64,000 nt of DNA from Candidatus Bathyarchaeota archaeon (GCA_963767735.1 CAVYES010000005.1:160001-224000); one strand, 5' to 3'. Counted from the first letter of the stretch, positions 26,288 through 61,848 are shown. Program-made: numbers and translations. The notes: generated by a model not told the origin, from the letters alone.

Positions 26288-26389
26288 AGCGGGGTGGGGT
26301 AGCCAGGATTAACCCGCTGGGCTCATAACGGCACAATTGTGCTGTGAGACACCCAGAGATCACTAGTTCAAATCTAGTCCCCGCTACCA
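26288..26389 (+). tRNA. tRNA-Met(CAT), initiator type, with a 23-nt canonical intron (26328-26350)
   Basis: A1:T72 pair, GGG/CCC anticodon stem, BHB motif CTCA-TAA / TGAG-ACA, encoded CCA. Confidence 0.95.
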
Positions 26390-49749: not shown

Positions 49750-49796
49750 TTGGAGCCTTCGGCGGGATTTGGACCCGCGACCATTACCTTACCAAG
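49750..49796 (-). repeat. att site (duplicated 3' part of tRNA-Thr)
   Basis: TTGGAGCCTTCGGCGGGATTTGGACCCGCGACCATTACCTTACCAAG is identical to 55937-55983. Confidence 0.95.
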
Positions 49797-50656
49797 CCGC
49801 CCGATTCATTGAACCGATGAGCTTTAGAGCTTTTGATTGGGTTGAATTCAAAAAATTCGTCCAGGGAAAATACCGCAAAACCACCGCCAAAAGAGTCATG
49901 TGCTATGCCAAGCGCTACTACCCTGTGCCTGAATCTGGCAATGTCGGGCAACTCAATGTTGTCCCATCAACCGTTAAATCTGAAGTAATCAAAAGTCTAA
50001 TCGTGATCTCGAAGTACATCGGGTGCTATGAGCAGTTCAAGGCTTCACTGAAAAGCTACGGAATCAAATCAGCCCAGCCAGACGCGCTTGCCGCCTTCGT
50101 CAGAATATACAACAATAACAACAGCAATTTGGACGAGTGATTCGCCAAAGTCAAGCCAATACTCACGCCACAGGAGAATTTATTGCTGAAATTCTTGCAC
50201 CAGACAGGGCTACGATGCAGCGAGGGCATCGAAAGCTTCAACCTGATAATCGAGCTTTCGCAGAAGCAAAGATTGCACGAGTACCTAAGCACTGAAACCG
50301 GGATCCTATAGAATTTCAGGTACAAAGGCAAATTCCTGCGCGGCACCAAAAATGCCTTCATCAGCATTGTGCCCGAAAGCTTGATCGGCGAAATTACCGG
50401 CAGCCAATTTGTCACTTATGCAGCCATCACCAAAAAGCTTCAAAGGCGGAAAATTCCAACTCGAATCAGCGAGCTATGGGATTACTATGGCACCTTCATG
50501 ATCAGGCATGGACTCGTTGCCCAAGAAGCAGACTTGCTCTGTGGAAGGATTCCGTCAAGCATATTTGTCAGGCACTATTTTTCCCCAGCGATAAAGGACC
50601 TTAGAGATCGAACCTTGAAATCTCTTGAAGAAATGGACGTCAAAGGCCTTCAATAA
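49751..50656 (+). pseudogene. Tyrosine integrase C-terminal part (att-split, SSV-like), inactivated
   Basis: Single frame reading through att (WSLRRDLDPRPLPYQ); TGLRCSE, RGTKNAF, ELWDY, LCGR, FVRHY; in-frame stops at 50138 and 50309. Confidence 0.88.
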
Positions 50657-50771
50657 ATTAGGGGGTATAGAGGAAGGTCTTCCGTCTAAAAGCTAATCAT
50701 CAGAACCTATAAAAACAAACAAATAATATTCAAGAGGCTCGTCTCTATACCGCCCATTTCTCGAAAGGCCT
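50643..50771 (+). repeat. Cassette-boundary repeat A
   Basis: Core TAAAAGCTAAT-CATCAG-AACCTATAAAA at 50687-50714; AAGGCCT at both ends; overlaps the integrase stop. Confidence 0.85.
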
Positions 50772-50838
50772 ACGGAAAAAAAACGGTCTTAGATCAACAA
50801 AAAAGTTGGAGAATAAAACTCCCTATTGAATTCTTACC

Positions 50839-51129
50839 TTATGGCTTTGTGAGAGTTATCTCCATAGTTGAAACCATTCTTGACCTGTTTTCGCCTTCTC
50901 TTGGCGGCATCTCTACTGTTCCGATTGCTACATTGGTCACTTTGAGGTCTTTTATAAAGCGGTTTCTTGTAATTTCTGCGCAGTCAACTGCGGTCGTGAT
51001 TGCTTGTCCTCTTGCTTTTAGTGTTATTTCTTTTTCGGTGCCTGAAGAGAATGCTGTTATGATAGCGAGCACATAGCTCATTGGCGGTTTGTTTCCGACG
51101 AATATTACGTCATTAGGTTTTTGTGTCAT
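50839..51129 (-). CDS. albA: DNA/RNA-binding protein Alba
   Basis: IFVGNKPPMSYVLA, LKARGQAITTAVD, VSTMEITL. Confidence 0.95.
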   Translation of the reverse strand: MTQKPNDVIFVGNKPPMSYVLAIITAFSSGTEKEITLKARGQAITTAVDCAEITRNRFIKDLKVTNVAIGTVEMPPREGENRSRMVSTMEITLTKP

Positions 51130-51200
51130 ATTCTTGTCACTTCCCGATTTCATATGGTTCCGTCTGGTATATGGCTAGTGCCGTTTTAGATATGGTTGCC

Positions 51201-51337
51201 TAGGCCTTCCAAAATTTTACCCCCATAGAGAGAAAGACTTGTCAGGTTTTATCTAATCATCGCAACAAATAAAAATCAAATAAATTAAATCAAACTTATC
51301 TACTCTACGCCCGCCAGTTTCCGGAAGACCTTTGCCC
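51201..51337 (+). repeat. Cassette-boundary repeat B
   Basis: Core TTTTATCTAAT-CATCGC-AACAAATAAAA at 51247-51274. Confidence 0.85.
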
Positions 51338-51686
51338 TGATTGCGGCAGACAAGAACGGCCGAACCGGGCAAATCGAGACTTACAGATGCCGCGACTGCT
51401 GCCACAGGTTTTCATGATTAATCGTTTTTCTCTATTTTTTCATTTTGCTTATTGCTTAATTCGTAAGATATAATAAACTGAGTGCATTATGATCTGAAAG
51501 GCAAGTCTGAGTGGGGGTGGCGAACGTAGGTCAAGGCAAGGACGGCAGGTGCCGAGCAAAAGCCCGGGCAATCCTCGAGAGGCTCCAAAAAGATTGATGG
51601 CAGAATCCTTAGAGACTACTTTCACTTAAGTCTCCACTGCCACTTCACTCCTTTACTTCGTTATATTTTTAAGGAAAACCAGCAAA

Positions 51687-51878
51687 ATGTTTTGCGCTAT
51701 GTGCGATCAATGCCTGGTCAAGTGCTGCTATGCGTGCGGTCGCATGCCAATGGGCGGAGGCGGCAAGTGCTGCCCGAGATGTAAGATCCGCTTCTGCTAC
51801 ACCTGCACGCTCGAGCTCACGTATGCCCAAAAGAAGCTCCCGCTCGAATGCCCCATGTGCGGTGGAAAATTTGGGTAG
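51687..51878 (+). CDS. Small Cys-rich zinc-finger protein
   Basis: Five CxxC pairs in 63 aa. Confidence 0.65.
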   Translation: MFCAMCDQCLVKCCYACGRMPMGGGGKCCPRCKIRFCYTCTLELTYAQKKLPLECPMCGGKFG

Positions 51879-52237
51879 CGGAGAAGGTCGTAAAGTTGAA
51901 AAACACAAGTTATTAGAAAAAACTTCTAACGCCAAAAGTCTGAGCACAGCAGCCAAAGAAACGGCAAGCGAGACCGTAAAACTCAAACATACCGCTGCCA
52001 AGATTGCGCGCACAGGTTTACATAAGTGCATTCATTGCTTTTTCAATTCTGTCCCAAGCGATATCAGTCGATTAAGACATTCTATATCGTTTCTTCACAA
52101 TTTCATCATTTGGGTAAAGTAGAATCATTAAGTGATAAATTGCCTTTTCAACATCGTGAACATACGCATTTGCTTCCTCTGATGACTGGATCATATGTTT
52201 TGAAAAAGGTTTAGTAGGGCAGTCGTGCTCGCTTTAT

Positions 52238-52513
52238 TTACCTTTGAGATTCTTCTATGATAGGTAGCACTTGCGTGAGTTCTCGGAGTTGCTTAAGCAC
52301 AGTTATGCCTTGTTGTGTGACGGCGAAAACTGTGCTCCTTTTTTTAATAGTGCGTTCTTCGACCAGTCCCTGTTTGATAAGGAAGTCCAGATGGCCTCTA
52401 AGCATGCTGCCATTGACGTTAGCTTTGTACATGATGTGTGTCAGCTTTAAGGGACCTAACCGCGCCAACGTGTTGAGGATATCAATGTACGTTTCTAGTT
52501 TTGATCGTCTCAT
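52238..52513 (-). CDS. Winged-helix transcriptional regulator
   Basis: MRRSKLETYIDIL...THIMYKANVN...LIKQGLV...VTQQG. Confidence 0.88.
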   Translation of the reverse strand: MRRSKLETYIDILNTLARLGPLKLTHIMYKANVNGSMLRGHLDFLIKQGLVEERTIKKRSTVFAVTQQGITVLKQLRELTQVLPIIEESQR

Positions 52514-52794
52514 AGGTGTTGCCTCAAGACTCTCCAGTTTCACAGGTGGTCTTTCCACTGTATAAAAAAGTTTATTTTTTTTATAAGCTTTTGCTATTTT
52601 CATTTGCTTAATTCATTGTAAACTGTATTCGGAATCAAGAAATGAGTTTTAAAGCTAAATGATGAAGAGACTTATTGCCGTGCTGTTTCTGTGATTGCGC
52701 AAAGCCTATAACAACGTCTTATATGCGATGCGGGAGAAGTAGGAATCCCTTGCTCCTTTACCTATCAAAAGGGGGCAAGTCTGGAGTTAGAAAT

Positions 52795-53076
52795 ATGACA
52801 AGAAAAAGCACCCAAGAAATCAACTTCTCTTCTGGTCAAGACAGCAAAAGCAAATCTGCTGTTCGCAAAGAAAGGATGCCAATTGTCAGATGCTTGTGCG
52901 GCTCCGAAATTTTGGTGGTGCCCGATTTGAAAGCCATGAACCGTGCTATAAAAAATCATGTTGCCGAACACAAGCAAGCACGTGATGGTTCAGATAGGCT
53001 TGAGTCGTTGACGGAGTTCTTGATAGAGCAGGTTCTTACAGTGGCAAGCGAAATAAATCTGCCGAATGTAAAATAG
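52795..53076 (+). CDS. Small putative zinc-binding protein, paralog 1
   Basis: IVRCLCGSEILVVPDLKAMNRAIKNHVAEH (CxC...HxxxH). Confidence 0.75.
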   Translation: MTRKSTQEINFSSGQDSKSKSAVRKERMPIVRCLCGSEILVVPDLKAMNRAIKNHVAEHKQARDGSDRLESLTEFLIEQVLTVASEINLPNVK

Positions 53077-53092
53077 TCATGAACAATCTACC

Positions 53093-53230
53093 AAGGCTTC
53101 CAAAAATTCACCCCCATAGATGGAAGAAGGCTTTTCGGAAAATAGCTAATCATCAGAGCATATAAAATAATTTAATATAAATTATGGCTTCTCATCCTAT
53201 GGCGCCCAATTCGTGACAGGCCTTCTGCCC
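53093..53230 (+). repeat. Cassette-boundary repeat C
   Basis: Core AAATAGCTAAT-CATCAG-AGCATATAAAA at 53140-53167. Confidence 0.85.
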
Positions 53231-53360
53231 TCACAATATACGCTGAATCACCTTCCGGGCGGTTTAATTTTCGTGATGCACGTATAGTACTATTTTTTAA
53301 ACTAAAGTGACTAATAAGTACAAAGGAACAGTTCGAGAATCAATCTTGAAAGTGATAAAA

Positions 53361-53633
53361 ATGGGCGAAACAAAATCGCAAAAAAAGCAAACTGGACAAT
53401 TAATAATTCGCGGGATCACTCAAGATAACGCTACAAAACTTATCGAGTTTCTCACACAAGGAACATTGCTGTCAGAAGAGAAACTGTTTGAAACGGCTGA
53501 CTTCTGGCCTCAGAACGAAATGGATGACTATACCGATGCCGTGATCGCAGCGATGCTTATAGCAAAAAATACCGCGCACGCTAAAGACCACAAAAAGAGT
53601 CGCAGGCCACAAAATGTAATTCACTATGAGTGA
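53361..53633 (+). CDS. Hypothetical protein
   Basis: ORF with GTGA-type RBS before ATG 53361. Confidence 0.55.
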   Translation: MGETKSQKKQTGQLIIRGITQDNATKLIEFLTQGTLLSEEKLFETADFWPQNEMDDYTDAVIAAMLIAKNTAHAKDHKKSRRPQNVIHYE

Positions 53634-54379
53634 CGGTATTATTTTTTGGACTTAAACTGCCCGACACCCATTCCCTCGCAATGTGCATATCATCGATTTA
53701 TCCCGAAATTTTTTCCGGGAAATTTTTGACGCGCCCGAGCGAGTAAGCCTAGCCTTTGAACGGAAAAACATTTCTGCCTGAGTGGATTTTTGGTACTTTT
53801 TTGGAAGTTTGTCAGACCTTTCTAACGGACGGTGGCTATTCGTCCGTCTGAAGTATCTGTCATTTGCCATTCGAGCGTGTCGCCGGGTTGTAAATTCAAA
53901 AATTCAGCTATTCCTTCAGGCACCGTTGCTCTGGGGATTTCGATTTTGGTCTTGCTATCGATGTTTTTGATTTGAGGCGAGCCTCAAAATTGGTTTAAGC
54001 GGATTAAACAAAGGACCCAAAGCGGAGTCTAATTCGAATCTCTTGAGACGCGATGAATGTGGTGTAAAAGAGTTCAAATGCGGGGACCCGGGCATGTTGC
54101 GATGGACCGAAAACCGCTCATAACGCGGCGCCATAAAAGTTATTAAATTTTCGTCATTTTTTATCATCCTTCAATCCGTATAAAGTGTTTTGGGGACCTC
54201 GGTCGGGTCGTCCGCCGATTCCGGGAAGGGCTCCCAATTTACTTTATATGGATTAAATCATATTAGGCAAACAAGCAAGCACTCTCGTCCAGTTTGACAA
54301 GCAGTTTCGCGCTCAGTAAAGGCATGGATTTGTCGGAAGCTTCACGCCCACGCAGTGTACGCTGTTTCAGGGCACGCGT

Positions 54380-54513
54380 AAGGTCTTTCAAATTCTGAGG
54401 GGTATAGAGGGAGTAAGGCTTGCCGGGTTTTACCTTATCATAAGAACATATAAAAAATATAAAATAATTTTGGCTTGTCTTTCTCTAAGGTGTCCGATTC
54501 GGGAAAAGACCTT
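54380..54513 (+). repeat. Cassette-boundary repeat D
   Basis: Core TTTTACCTTAT-CATAAG-AACATATAAAA at 54428-54455. Confidence 0.88.
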
Positions 54514-54626
54514 TCTTAACTTCGCATCACTGTTTCCGTGATTGTGCCAAGCCTATCACAATTTCTTATATGCTTTGCAGACTAAATAGAACTTTACTAA
54601 TCTGGTAAAGTTAGGAATGTGAGGTC

Positions 54627-54911
54627 ATGACCAAAAAAAGCATTCAAGAAATTAACTTTACTTTTGATCAAGACCGCAAAAGCAAATTCGTTTCTCATAA
54701 GAAAGGCATACGTACTATCAGGTGCGCATGTGGTTTCGAAATTTTGGTGCTGCCCGATTTGAAAGCTATGGACCGAGCTATAGAAAATCATTTAGCCGAG
54801 CACAGGGCAGCAAGTGGTTGCTCAGAAAGTAATTTAGCGCTTGATTGGTTAAGACAGTTCTTGACCGCGCAGCTTTTAAGAGCGGCAAGCGAAATAATCT
54901 GCCAACCGTAA
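54627..54911 (+). CDS. Small putative zinc-binding protein, paralog 2
   Basis: TIRCACGFEILVLPDLKAMDRAIENHLAEH; clearly homologous to 52795-53076. Confidence 0.75.
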   Translation: MTKKSIQEINFTFDQDRKSKFVSHKKGIRTIRCACGFEILVLPDLKAMDRAIENHLAEHRAASGCSESNLALDWLRQFLTAQLLRAASEIICQP

Positions 54912-54931
54912 ATTAGCCTGAACAGTCAACC

Positions 54932-55070
54932 AAGGCATTCCAAAAATTTACCCCTATAGAGGGAAGATGTCTTTCGGGATTTACCTTATCATCAGAACAT
55001 ATAAAATACACTAAATAATTTTTGGGTTGACTTGTCCTATCCCCTCCAACCGGCGACAGTCCTTTGGCCC
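54932..55070 (+). repeat. Cassette-boundary repeat E
   Basis: Core ATTTACCTTAT-CATCAG-AACATATAAAA at 54979-55006. Confidence 0.88.
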
Positions 55071-55248
55071 CAAACAATGTACAGTGATCGGGCAAGTTTG
55101 CGCTCCGGCGATTTTTATGTATCTTGGATGCGCAAGGTTTAAAAAAAGTAAATCGTTTGCTTGATTGGGCAGGTTCAGAGGGAACTGCTGGATGGTTCGC
55201 CATCTTCACGCACTTCCGCAAACTCTAACCTCCCCGCTTGAATTCTTC

Positions 55249-55379
55249 AAGACCTTCCGAAATCTGGGGGTATAGAAGGAAAGGCTTGCACGATTTTACC
55301 TTATCATCAGAACATCTAAAATGAAAGAAATAGTTTTAGGATTGACTTATCCTATCCTGCCCAGATTTTGACATGCCTT
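55249..55379 (+). repeat. Cassette-boundary repeat F
   Basis: Core TTTTACCTTAT-CATCAG-AACATCTAAAA at 55294-55321. Confidence 0.88.
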
Positions 55380-55707
55380 AGGTGTCTATTAGTTGCAGTT
55401 CCGAAATTCTTTTCTGCACCGTCTCGGACAGCTGTTGTCGCAACGGTTCGTCTGGTGTTGTTTTATCTATTTCGTCTATTTTTTGGGCGAGTTCCTCGTC
55501 GCCGATTGTGGTTCTTAGCCACTTTTGGAAGTCGCGGCGTTCGAAGTGGAACCTGATTGATTGTATGTCCAAGTGCTTAAGGTCGCTTAAGAAAGAGCAA
55601 AGAGACGTGGCTGTCTCGCCTGAATAATGGCCATCTGGCGCAAAAAAGTGGAAACCTCGCTCGTAAGGAACTGGGCTAAGTATTTTCTGTGCCTTTTCAA
55701 CGCTCAT
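55378..55707 (-). CDS. DUF5752-like small protein
   Basis: ILSPVPYERGFHF, SIRFHFERRDFQKWLRTTIGDEELA. Confidence 0.8.
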   Translation of the reverse strand: MSVEKAQKILSPVPYERGFHFFAPDGHYSGETATSLCSFLSDLKHLDIQSIRFHFERRDFQKWLRTTIGDEELAQKIDEIDKTTPDEPLRQQLSETVQKRISELQLIDT

Positions 55708-55768
55708 TGACAAGGTAGTAATCTCCAGATGATAATGGAGACAAGATGCTAAAATGGTTTTTGCGCTT

Positions 55769-55904
55769 AAGGTCTCCAAAAACTGGGGGTATAGAGGGAT
55801 AAAGCCTTTCGGGTTTTATCTTATCATCAGAACATATAAAAATCAAATAAATAAATTCAAACTTACAAACTCTATACATGGCAGTTTTCGACAGGCCTTT
55901 GCCC
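55769..55904 (+). repeat. Cassette-boundary repeat G
   Basis: Core TTTTATCTTAT-CATCAG-AACATATAAAA at 55814-55841. Confidence 0.88.
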
Positions 55905-55937
55905 CAATCATGGCATGCAATGAATCAGGGGCAAAGT

Positions 55938-56014
55938 TGGAGCCTTCGGCGGGATTTGGACCCGCGACCATTACCTTACCAAGGTAACGCCCCACCGGGC
56001 TAGGCTACGAAGGC
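55938..56014 (-). tRNA. tRNA-Thr(GGT)
   Basis: GCCTTCG/CGAAGGC acceptor stem, TTACC-TTGGTAA-GGTAA anticodon arm, encoded CCA. Confidence 0.93.
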
Positions 56015-61273: not shown

Positions 61274-61848
61274 GCCCAACCCCTTTCTTCTTTTTTTTAA
61301 GTTTGATCAACAAAGTTAGAGGTCTAATTAAAGAGAAGAGGATTTTTATGTAAAATCGAGGGCGGAGCGTAAGATCATGAAAACCCGTGGCACAGTCACG
61401 GCATCTGTAAGTCTGAATTTGCGCGGTTCGAATATACCTAATTCAGTTTTTTGGAGTTTCTTTGACTGCCGCAATCAGGGCAGCTATTTGTTCAATTTTG
61501 TTCGATTCCTTTTTCATTTCACGAAGAAAGAGGGAATTTGCGAGTGATACCTCAAGAACTTCAGGGGTTCAAATCCCACCCCCTGCACTTTTTGCTTATT
61601 TTTCTGCTTGTTTCTTGCTATTTTCTTGCATTTTCGCAAATAAAGGATAAGACATATTCACTTTAGCGGGGTTCAAACTCCAAGTCCATAATGCGGTTCG
61701 GACTCTAAAGGGTTTAAATCCCATAGAGCCTTGCACCGCTTTAGGCTCGAATTCATGCCTCTTCTAAATATCTAGCTTAACAATATCGCTTTTGCAAATA
61801 ACTTATATGATACTTTTGGTTTTATTTTAAGTTCGGGAGAAACGAACC

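What the first reader, a model, noticed from the sequence alone, without database searches (positions are those of the whole stretch)
50643..55904. Candidate archaeal gene-cassette array delimited by seven repeats with dif-like cores
Seen: seven directly oriented ~130-bp imperfect repeats start at 50643, 51201, 53093, 54380, 54932, 55249 and 55769, all inside one integrated element. I saw no copy elsewhere in the window. Each has a 28-bp core with imperfectly inverted 11-bp arms and a 6-bp spacer (consensus TTTTAYCTTAT-CATCAG-AACATATAAAA), nested within an inner TATAG/CTAT pair and outer AAGGCCTT-like ends. Core-to-core distances are 560, 1893, 1288, 551, 315 and 520 bp. The modules hold small genes in either orientation: alba, zinc finger + wHTH + Zn protein, a hypothetical, a Zn paralog, no clear ORF, and DUF5752. 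Known: 11-6-11 is the architecture of Xer/dif tyrosine-recombinase sites. These repeats lack attC GTTRRRY ends, and the integrase is not IntI-like. Inference: an integron-analogous system that captures and shuffles cassettes with a tyrosine recombinase.
Basis: partly seen in the sequence, partly recalled or inferred. Interest (0 to 1): 0.93.

Follow-up and report, generated by a model that had tools for sequence, protein, structure and literature searches.

The report
Repeat-punctuated gene modules in archaeal element
A small element inserted in a tRNA gene of a peat-soil archaeon (Bathyarchaeia) is built from an integrase plus small gene modules separated by a conserved ~135-base repeat, and related genomes show these modules being swapped at the repeats, though not by the dif-like mechanism first proposed.

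Summary
The seven direct ~135-bp repeats are real and lie at the stated coordinates. They sit in a 6.2-kb element integrated at tRNA-Thr(GGT), bounded by a perfect 47-bp att duplication. Its SSV-type "suicidal" integrase is split by integration and carries two in-frame stops.

The repeat is a genus-wide family:
- It occurs in 14 of 36 other same-genus genomes and in more than 120 peat or soil metagenome contigs.
- 114 of 116 neighbouring copies point the same way.
- The median module is 766 bp.
- Of 180 repeat pairs with a similar flank, 176 share one flank only and 4 share both, so almost every repeat is a mosaic junction.
- Ten elements at the same tRNA-Thr share only the integrase.

Cassette-like shuffling is therefore supported. 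The proposed mechanism is not:
- The 11-6-11 symmetry is weak (mean 5.5 of 11; the conserved inner positions are never complementary).
- The arms show no covariation.
- The genome holds no other core-like site and no XerA above the curated cut-off.
- Repeats occur in genomes without this integrase.
- Homology breakpoints are spread along the repeat rather than fixed at CATCAG.

Best reading: conserved intergenic "joint" repeats exchanged by homology-type recombination. This could be host-driven or integrase-driven, as published for Int-pTN3. A dedicated site-specific system is not excluded.

The parts
49750..49796 (.). attL: left copy of the 47-bp perfect direct repeat bounding the integrated element
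   Evidence: D9, 100% identity with 55937-55983
49769..50656 (+). Int(C): C-terminal, catalytic part of a split SSV-type (PF16795) integrase. It is a pseudogene with in-frame TGA at 50138-50140 and TAG at 50309-50311. Its stop codon lies inside the left arm of R1.
   Evidence: intact homologue L062 scores 33.6 bits on PF16795 against a cut-off of 27
50641..50776 (+). Repeat R1, of the integrase-proximal subtype that directly follows the integrase stop in relatives
50839..51153 (-). Module 1: Alba chromatin protein gene (PF01918, E 5.7e-19); 87% nucleotide identity to a chromosomal copy at C5:367401-367686
51200..51337 (+). Repeat R2 (most diverged core, spacer CATCGC)
51338..53091 (.). Module 2: decayed Zn-ribbon fragment (51333-51419), Zn-ribbon ORF 51687-51878(+), HTH_45/Sso10a-like wHTH 52238-52603(-) and Zn protein 52795-53076(+). 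The part 52185-53130 is 97.8% identical to C4:255714-256731.
53092..53228 (+). Repeat R3. It is identical to the C4 copy up to ...GAAGG (model position 41), then drops to family-level similarity, which marks a chimeric junction.
53307..53633 (+). Module 3: hypothetical 108-aa ORF (no Pfam or NCBIfam match) with about 750 bp of non-coding or uncertain sequence
54379..54515 (+). Repeat R4
54627..54911 (+). Module 4: Zn-protein paralogue (CxC...HxxxH). This is the commonest module family in the arrays (14 of 14 copies on the + strand) and is Bathyarchaeia-specific.
54930..55069 (+). Repeat R5
55070..55247 (.). Module 5: ORF-less 'empty' module, 94-99% conserved with different neighbours in loci L067, L094 and L099; modest excess of RNA structure
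55248..55383 (+). Repeat R6
55378..55779 (-). Module 6: DUF5752 protein (PF19027, E 1.6e-8). The same module lies between repeats in G019, G002 and metagenome contig L089.
55769..55904 (+). Repeat R7, the last copy, 16 bp upstream of the integrase start codon
55921..55983 (+). Int(N): N-terminal piece of the split integrase (MNQGQSW...), running into attR
   Evidence: same N-terminus in L059, L061 and intact L062
55937..55983 (.). attR: right copy of the 47-bp repeat, inside tRNA-Thr
55938..56014 (-). tRNA-Thr(GGT), the integration target

Best explanation
The window holds a decayed member of a Bathyarchaeia-specific family of small tRNA-integrating elements. Their only constant gene is a suicidal SSV-type integrase. 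Their cargo is a string of small modules, each separated from the next by one copy of a conserved, directionally fixed ~135-140-bp intergenic repeat.

The repeat has three parts: a left arm, a near-invariant asymmetric 21-nt block (CTWATCATCAGAACMTATAAA) with an AT-rich tail, and a right arm. Three AAGGCCTT-type palindromes are spread across it.

Shown: the repeats are the joints at which modules are exchanged, gained and lost between elements.

Inferred: exchange happens by homology-type recombination between repeat copies, which act as portable homology. Pairing of two direct copies loops out or takes in a circle carrying one hybrid repeat plus a module. The agent is either the host recombination machinery or the integrase. 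The integrase route is modelled on the published activity of the suicidal integrase Int-pTN3 on segments as short as 104 bp.

Also inferred: the near-invariant block is kept by selection as a protein-binding or promoter-like intergenic signal. The exchange is not a dif/Xer-type crossover at a fixed nucleotide.
For: Array and family:
- 7 copies in the window against 0 expected.
- 14 of 36 other same-genus genomes carry clustered copies; 0 of 24 genomes of other families in the order do (stricter filters).
77 of the 80 fetched loci have a repeat match.
- 35 of 35 multi-repeat contigs have uniform orientation. 114 of 116 adjacent pairs under 6 kb apart point the same way, and the median module is 766 bp.

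Junction role:
- Among 178 distinct full-length repeats, 176 pairs share one similar flank only and 4 share both.
- The wHTH+Zn module is 97.8% identical at two loci of this genome, and the homology ends inside the repeat.
- The ORF-less module and the DUF5752 module recur with different neighbours.
- 10 elements at tRNA-Thr share only the integrase cluster, present in 9 of 10.

Homology-type rather than fixed-site exchange:
- The 25 informative boundaries spread as follows: 5 at or below m9, 12 at m19-64, 3 at m79-94 and 5 at or above m105.
- One module has its right boundary at m19/20 and its left boundary between m20 and m56.

Not a folded site: pairing is 65.5% against 65.9 +/- 0.4% in shuffles.

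Not Xer/dif.

Precedent:
- Int-pTN3 gives homologous-recombination-like outcomes on segments of 104 bp or more (PMC5495485, abstract and passages).
- Suicidal integrases carry PF16795, and module exchange by homologous recombination between integrated elements is described (PMC8371274, passages).
Against: - The copies are only about 70% identical overall, so they are poor substrates for classical homologous recombination. The only long identical stretch is the 21-28-nt core.
- The near-invariance of an asymmetric core over more than 130 distinct copies, and the almost perfect directional uniformity, are what a dedicated site-specific system would need. Plain homology does not explain them.
- 12 of 25 boundaries fall in m19-64, about a third of the repeat's length. 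The pairs are not independent. Three sharp breaks lie at or near AAGG| (m36-42).
- The Int-pTN3-like activity is a literature analogy. This integrase has no detectable sequence match to phage, plasmid or PDB records.
- No transcript data bear on the promoter idea.
Confidence: 0.5

Rival explanations
1. This is a dedicated site-specific cassette system, an integron analogue. A recombinase recognises the conserved core and/or the AAGGCCTT palindromes and catalyses excision and insertion of module circles. The recombinase could be the element's integrase, another of the host's 16 tyrosine-recombinase homologues, or an unknown enzyme. The scattered boundaries would then be secondary: later gene conversion, divergence, or more than one cleavage site.
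For: - The 21-nt asymmetric block is near-invariant within otherwise ~70%-identical repeats.
- 114 of 116 adjacent copies are direct.
- Module sizes are integron-like, with a median of 766 bp.
- The integrase is flanked by repeats on both sides. A repeat starts within 11 bp of the integrase end in 11 of 22 integrase loci.
- The only backbone is integrase plus repeats.
- 9 of 25 boundaries are compatible with a crossover inside the invariant core.
- Sharp breaks, and half-repeats ending at AAGG| (m41/42), occur in R3 versus C4 and in L062.
Against: - 16 of 25 boundaries are incompatible with a crossover in the CATCAG spacer.
- One module has two different boundary positions.
- The core lacks the inner dyad symmetry of tyrosine-recombinase core sites.
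- There is no covariation for an attC-like fold.
- Repeats occur in 8 of 14 repeat-bearing same-genus genomes without a strong homologue of this integrase, and 7 genomes have the integrase without repeats.
- No XerA reaches the cut-off, and no chromosomal counterpart site exists.
Confidence: 0.27
2. The repeat is a MITE-like selfish element with AAGGCCTT-type terminal inverted repeats. It transposes preferentially into intergenic DNA of these mobile elements, and the modular look is a by-product.
For: - The size of ~135-140 bp, the similar inverted ends, and the solitary copies at C6:366468-366603 and C2:120525-120656 in this genome fit a MITE.
- Partial copies exist.
Against: - No target-site duplication is visible at the 7 window copies (read).
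- No empty site was found. In 176 of 180 similar-flank pairs the other flank is unrelated rather than continuous. A search with the solitary C6 locus in 40 same-genus genomes gave no hit spanning the insertion point.
- Uniform orientation within arrays is not expected for transposition.
- No IS with matching ends exists in the genome.
- The 'inverted' ends rest on motifs that are themselves palindromes.
Confidence: 0.08
3. The repeat is purely an expression or replication signal that each module needs: a promoter/terminator unit, an operator for the module-encoded wHTH or Zn proteins, a small-RNA gene, or an origin-like iteron. It has no role in recombination beyond accidental homology.
For: - The core ends in a TATA-like ATATAAAA followed by an AT-rich tract rich in hexamers that are enriched upstream of host genes.
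- R7 sits 16 bp before the integrase start.
- Small DNA-binding proteins dominate the cargo.
Against: - Repeat orientation is fixed while module genes lie on both strands (97 + and 84 - ORFs of at least 60 aa).
- Modules carry their own conserved upstream regions (D7).
- There is no Rfam family.
- The arm motif is absent from the rest of the genome, origin regions included.
- Seven origins in 6 kb is implausible.
- This reading does not explain why nearly every copy is a mosaic junction.
Confidence: 0.1

Closest known systems
Integron cassette arrays (IntI + attC), including the archaeal integrons of Ghaly et al. (10.1101/2022.02.06.479319, passages read)
   Same: Both are tandem arrays of short modules (here median 766 bp) separated by directly oriented, imperfectly conserved repeats of roughly 60-140 bp next to a tyrosine recombinase gene. 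Cargo is highly variable and mostly of unknown or accessory function.
   Different: - The integrase is a split suicidal PF16795 type, not IntI.
- There are no R/L boxes, and no conserved single-strand fold.
- Module genes lie on both strands and carry their own upstream regions.
- The integrase gene is itself flanked by the repeat.
- Junction positions are not fixed.
pdif/dif modules of Acinetobacter plasmids (PMC6449649, PMC13141974; abstracts seen in the search listing only)
   Same: Discrete accessory modules in small replicons are bounded by repeated short sites and found shuffled between relatives.
   Different: - pdif sites are 28-bp XerC/XerD sites resembling the chromosomal dif.
- Here the 11-6-11 symmetry is weak.
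- No chromosomal counterpart site exists.
- No XerA reaches the curated cut-off.
- The conserved unit is ~135 bp, and all copies are direct.
Suicidal (SSV / pTN3 / pT26-2-type) integrase elements and the homologous-recombination-like activity of Int-pTN3 (PMC5495485 abstract and passages; PMC8371274 passages)
   Same: The att site lies inside the integrase gene, which is split on integration into a tRNA gene. The Pfam family is PF16795. The literature describes recombination with homologous-recombination-like outcome on segments of 104 bp or more, and module exchange between related integrated elements.
   Different: - The host is a mesophilic peat or soil Bathyarchaeia lineage, not a hyperthermophile.
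- The element has no replication or virion genes, only an integrase plus repeat-delimited modules.
- No sequence-level match to phage, plasmid or PDB records was found.
- The dual activity is untested for this enzyme.
- The passages read do not describe arrays of a dedicated ~135-bp repeat.
MITEs
   Same: The size, the similar ends, and the multiple copies per genome, including solitary and partial ones.
   Different: There are no target-site duplications, no empty sites and no cognate IS. Orientation is fixed in arrays, and copies are confined to mobile-element contexts and module boundaries.

Membership tests
Integron (IntI/attC) | Integrase of the IntI type (PF00589 plus an IntI-specific extra domain) | tested here: not met
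   The element's integrase matches PF16795 (33.6 bits, cut-off 27). It gives no NCBIfam integron-integrase or Xer hit (0 families for L062 Int). The IntI-specific domain profile itself is not available here.
Integron (IntI/attC) | attC sites: a conserved single-strand hairpin (R''/L''-L'/R' pairing) with GTTRRRY/RYYYAAC ends | tested here: not met
   Folding z-scores of the 7 copies are -3.1, +1.1, -0.9, -0.2, +0.6, -0.1 and -1.7. On 139 distinct copies, 65.5% of cells pair against 65.9 +/- 0.4% in shuffles, so there is no covariation. The ends are AAGGCCTT-like, not GTTRRRY.
Integron (IntI/attC) | Tandem array of mobile cassettes that differ between relatives | tested here: met
   114 of 116 adjacent copies are direct, and the median module is 766 bp. 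176 similar-flank pairs share one flank and 4 share both. Cargo differs in 10 of 10 tRNA-Thr elements.
Xer/dif-type modules (dif, pdif, IMEX) | 28-bp site with two 11-bp inverted arms around a 6-bp spacer, most symmetric next to the spacer | tested here: not met
   Mean complementarity is 5.5 of 11 in 133 copies. The positions next to the spacer are conserved but complementary in only 2-5% of copies.
Xer/dif-type modules (dif, pdif, IMEX) | Sites mimic a chromosomal dif of the host | tested here: not met
   The core pattern with up to 3 mismatches occurs only inside the repeat copies of the 3.04-Mb, 95%-complete genome.
Xer/dif-type modules (dif, pdif, IMEX) | Host XerA (or XerC/D) present | tested here: not met
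   NCBIfam recomb_XerA_Arch: the best of 16 matches scores 90 bits against a cut-off of 220. The model passes the cut-off in 4 of the 14 control genomes. The genome is incomplete, so absence is not proven.
Suicidal SSV-type integrase element | The att site lies inside the integrase ORF, and the gene is split into Int(N) and Int(C) at the two ends of the integrated element | tested here: met
   The 47-bp att copies lie at both ends. Reading across the junction gives one continuous integrase collinear with the intact L062 protein.
Suicidal SSV-type integrase element | Pfam PF16795 catalytic domain | tested here: met
   Window copy: 29.9 bits over the cut-off in the genome search. Intact homologue: 33.6 bits.
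Int-pTN3-like dual-activity integrase | Catalyses homologous-recombination-like exchange between homologous segments of 104 bp or more that are not att sites | not testable with these tools
   Literature only (PMC5495485). There is no sequence match to plasmid or phage records that would place this integrase in the pTN3 family.
MITE | Terminal inverted repeats plus target-site duplications, and polymorphic empty sites | tested here: not met
   The ends are similar, but no target-site duplication is seen. No empty site was found. No IS with matching ends exists in the genome.

The most novel reading that the evidence does not exclude
The repeats are the recombination sites of a previously unknown, archaeal, non-IntI cassette platform. 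A recombinase recognises the near-invariant asymmetric core and/or the AAGGCCTT palindromes and inserts or excises module circles. Small suicidal-integrase elements of Bathyarchaeia would then work as integron analogues that collect chromatin proteins, regulators, defence-like genes and signalling genes.
Probability: 0.27. Interest if true: 0.9.

Novelty: new variant of a known kind. Interest (0 to 1): 0.66.

Why it matters
Bathyarchaeia are abundant and uncultured, and their mobile elements are barely described. This locus shows a simple platform: one integrase plus a portable ~135-bp joint. On it, unrelated small genes are assembled and reshuffled between species. The cargo includes Alba and Sso10a-like chromatin proteins, Zn proteins, a SIR2-like protein and a CheB-CheR-PAS-kinase fusion.

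This makes a concrete question testable: do archaea have a second way, besides IntI/attC integrons, to build cassette arrays? It also asks whether suicidal integrases drive that by homology-type recombination.

The repeat model built here can be used to find such arrays and their cargo in peat and soil metagenomes.

Tried and rejected
- Xer/dif reading: rejected for the reasons in the membership test.
- attC-like or hairpin reading: rejected.
- Origin (ORB-like) reading: the arm motifs GGGGGTATAG and CCCCCATAG occur 3 and 9 times in the genome. All 3 GGGGGTATAG hits and 4 of the 9 CCCCCATAG hits lie in repeat copies, and no origin-like cluster was seen.
- Restriction-site idea: AGGCCT is not avoided once GGCC is accounted for (O/E 1.04). 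GGCC itself is strongly avoided (O/E 0.35). No link to the junctions could be made.
- Similarity between the core and the 47-bp att, or the tRNA-Thr upstream region: noticed by eye and (D11). I judged it within chance and not conserved across elements with other att sites, so I dropped it.
- Rfam: no family for the repeats.
- Viral contigs: 0 matches to the core.
- Integrase against plasmid, phage and PDB collections: no match.
- Sequencing runs: no RNA holder was listed. Laying Logan contigs of 4 DNA runs gave only low-depth scraps of 150-600 nt. The two 'joints' reported (53130>54983 and 55321>52185) are explained by the paralogous C4 locus, so there is no evidence for or against circles.
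- Circular contigs: 0 of the 80 fetched metagenome loci had a terminal overlap.
- Host promoter consensus from 1993 upstream regions: only a weak AT-rich signal, not decisive.
- Empty-site search for the solitary C6 copy in 40 same-genus genomes: no spanning hit, inconclusive.
- Literature: searches for Bathyarchaeia + integrase + mobile elements, Sulfolobus conjugative plasmid 'recombination motif' (0 papers) and SSV-type integrase + Bathyarchaeota (0 papers) found no description of these repeats. I recalled from memory, and did not verify, 16-bp recombination motifs in Sulfolobus conjugative plasmids and the ~125-bp Vibrio chromosomal integron repeats.

Full report
**1. What is in the window**

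The repeat finder, a MAFFT alignment and a pattern scan all recover seven directly oriented copies of a ~135-140-bp repeat. Their model-based coordinates are 50641-50776, 51200-51337, 53092-53228, 54379-54515, 54930-55069, 55248-55383 and 55769-55904. The conserved block CTWATCATCAGAACMTATAAA, allowing up to 3 mismatches, occurs 7 times in the window. All seven are on the + strand, and none were expected in 100 shuffles.

The copies lie inside a 6.2-kb insertion bounded by a perfect 47-bp direct repeat at 49750-49796 and 55937-55983. That repeat is the 3' part of tRNA-Thr(GGT).

Reading across the att junction gives one integrase, collinear with intact homologues (start MNQGQSW..., ATG at 55921). 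In the window it is split into Int(N) and Int(C) and carries two in-frame stops. It belongs to Pfam PF16795, the family of 'suicidal' archaeal integrases (PMC8371274, passages). The integrase stop codon lies in the left arm of R1, and R7 ends 16 bp before the integrase start. In the circular form the integrase gene is therefore itself bracketed by repeats.

The six modules hold Alba; a Zn-ribbon ORF with an HTH_45/Sso10a-like wHTH and a Zn protein; a hypothetical protein; a Zn-protein paralogue; nothing obvious; and DUF5752.

**2. The repeat is a family, not a local oddity**

A profile of the seven copies finds six more full copies in the same 3.04-Mb genome, plus partial ones. The full copies are four on contig C4 (three of them clustered), one on C6 and one on C2.

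Record titles of integrase-bearing relatives name the organism group as Bathyarchaeia MAGs from bog, peat and soil.

A sequence-only covariance model finds the repeat in 14 of 36 other genomes of the same genus. It finds it in 0 of 24 genomes from other families of the order (stricter filters). Copies are typically clustered and point the same way.

Of the 80 loci fetched, 77 hold at least one repeat. All 35 contigs with two or more copies have uniform orientation, and none is circular by terminal overlap.

Over all loci, with three duplicate loci dropped, 114 of 116 adjacent copies less than 6 kb apart are co-oriented. The inter-repeat modules are 134-4610 bp long, with a median of 766 bp.

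**3. Architecture around the integrase**

In 22 loci encoding a relative of the integrase, a repeat begins within 11 bp of the end of the integrase match in 11, and within 61 bp in 13. Nine loci end at tRNA-Thr(GGT) on the opposite strand, with 0-4 repeats in between.

Ten elements at this tRNA (the window plus nine) share only the integrase cluster, which is found in 9 of 10. A second cluster in 3 of 10 is an antisense ORF inside the integrase gene. No other cluster occurs in more than two.

Cargo elsewhere includes a SIR2-like protein, DUF1643, DUF5131, a 1236-aa CheB-CheR-PAS-histidine-kinase fusion, a nitroreductase-like ORF (my reading of the translation; no family search was run on it), AsnC-like small proteins, and many Zn and wHTH proteins. 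No replication or virion genes were seen.

Arrays also occur next to tRNA-Cys and tRNA-His, and beside a different, Xer-like integrase.

**4. The repeats are module junctions**

I took 178 distinct full-length repeats with 100-bp flanks and compared flanks pairwise. 176 pairs share one similar flank (at least 80% identity) while the other is at background (about 50%). Only 4 pairs share both. The pairs are not independent, because the same modules recur.

Concrete cases:
- The wHTH+Zn module (52185-53130) is 97.8% identical to C4:255714-256731. Identity is 100% up to ...GAAGG inside R3 and then falls to family level.
- The ORF-less module between R5 and R6 is 94-99% identical in L067, L094 and L099. 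It has different modules on both sides there.
- The DUF5752 module recurs between repeats in three other genomes or contigs.

**5. Tests of the proposed mechanism**

(a) Symmetry.
- The 11-bp arms match at 3, 8, 4, 7, 6, 7 and 8 of 11 positions in R1-R7 (read). The mean is 5.5 of 11 in 133 distinct copies.
- The matches come from outer T/A runs that are themselves variable (59-71% T).
- The conserved positions next to the spacer are complementary in only 2-5% of copies.
- What is conserved is an asymmetric block, not a dyad.

(b) Fold.
- Only R1 folds better than shuffles (z = -3.1); the others range from -1.7 to +1.1.
- On 139 distinct copies the arm pairing is 65.5% against 65.9 +/- 0.4% in column shuffles, so there is no covariation.
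- The apparent inverted arms rest on motifs that are themselves palindromes (AAGGCCTT, TATA).

(c) Host Xer/dif.
- The core occurs nowhere else in the genome at up to 3 mismatches.
- None of the 16 tyrosine-recombinase matches reaches the XerA cut-off (best 90 bits against 220).

(d) This integrase.
- Among the 36 same-genus genomes, 6 have repeats and a strong integrase homologue, 8 have repeats only, 7 have the integrase only, and 15 have neither (weak hits to the tRNA-derived N-terminus were ignored).
- The repeat therefore does not depend on this integrase.

(e) Crossover position.
- For 25 pairs with one flank at least 93% identical, I estimated maximum-likelihood boundaries in model coordinates.
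- They fall at or below m9 (5 pairs), at m19-64 (12), at m79-94 (3) and at or above m105 (5).
- The invariant core hides the exact point, so I allowed for that.
- The sharpest breaks are at m41/42 (R3 versus C4; a half-repeat in L062) and at m19/20.
- One and the same module has different left and right boundary positions.

**6. Most likely mechanism**

Shown: a directionally fixed, conserved intergenic repeat marks the boundaries at which modules are exchanged among small integrase-only elements of this genus.

Inferred: exchange is by pairing of repeat copies with crossovers at variable positions, that is, with a homologous-recombination-like outcome. Two direct copies would loop out, or take up, a circle with one hybrid repeat.

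The agent is open.
- Classical homologous recombination is a poor fit for ~70%-identical 135-bp segments.
- A suicidal integrase of the same Pfam family, Int-pTN3, is reported to catalyse such reactions on segments as short as 104 bp (PMC5495485). That makes the element's own enzyme class a plausible driver, but this is an analogy, not a test.
- The near-invariant asymmetric core and the uniform polarity argue that some protein reads the repeat. A dedicated site-specific system therefore remains a live rival (about 0.27).
- A promoter-like role of the core and its AT-rich tail is possible but untested. No RNA run was listed.

**7. Comparison with known systems, and novelty**

The array works like an integron or a set of dif modules, as a platform of exchangeable accessory modules. 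It fails the defining tests of both families (membership table). It is a bona fide suicidal-integrase element.

My searches found no description of such repeat-punctuated arrays in Bathyarchaeia or in other archaeal integrase elements. The archaeal integrons in print are of the IntI/attC type.

I rate it a new variant of a known kind (modular integrative elements or cassette arrays). It would be upgraded if a dedicated recombinase were found.

**8. Limits**

- All genomes are MAGs or metagenome contigs, and short-read contigs often end in the repeats.
- The boundary analysis compares diverged lineages, so later conversion could blur the original crossovers.
- No read-level evidence on circles could be obtained.

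Noticed in passing
window 55070-55247: The ORF-less module between R5 and R6 is 94-99% identical in three other loci (L067, L094, L099) from different assemblies. It folds somewhat better than shuffles on both strands (z -2.2 and -2.5). It could encode a small RNA or a micro-protein.
   Followed up: partly
window 50846-51131 vs G000:C5:367401-367686 and C6:9650-9930: The element's Alba gene is 87% and 76% identical at nucleotide level to two chromosomal copies. Homology is limited to the coding region, so this is a module that duplicates a host chromatin gene.
   Followed up: no
window 51333-51419, 51987-52023 and 61374-61430; L001:5260-5346: Several decayed copies of a CPxCG...YRCxxC Zn-ribbon fragment start right at the right end of R2. 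A weak IS1/IS1595-type Zn-domain hit occurs at the N-terminus of a 436-aa tyrosine recombinase elsewhere in the genome (L206). The fragments may be remnants of another integrase's N-terminus.
   Followed up: partly
whole genome G000: The tetranucleotide GGCC is strongly under-represented (2871 observed against 8259 expected from trinucleotides, O/E 0.35), as if under restriction pressure. Each repeat carries one or two GGCC within its AAGGCCTT motifs.
   Followed up: partly
window 26288-26389: ARAGORN reports a 102-nt tRNA-like gene with an undetermined four-base anticodon (ataa). It may be an intron-containing tRNA.
   Followed up: no
L001 (G000:C4:250000-269000): A second mobile region of the same genome holds three repeats, three wHTH genes (two of them next to a Zn-protein gene), two IS-type transposases and a broken Xer-like integrase abutting the TrpRS gene. 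This is a larger composite island built from the same parts.
   Followed up: partly
L060, L065, L069, L073 (downstream of tRNA-Leu(TAG)): In four relatives a different, Xer-like integrase sits beside the neighbouring tRNA-Leu(TAG). The tRNA-Thr/tRNA-Leu pair is therefore a double integration hotspot in this genus.
   Followed up: no
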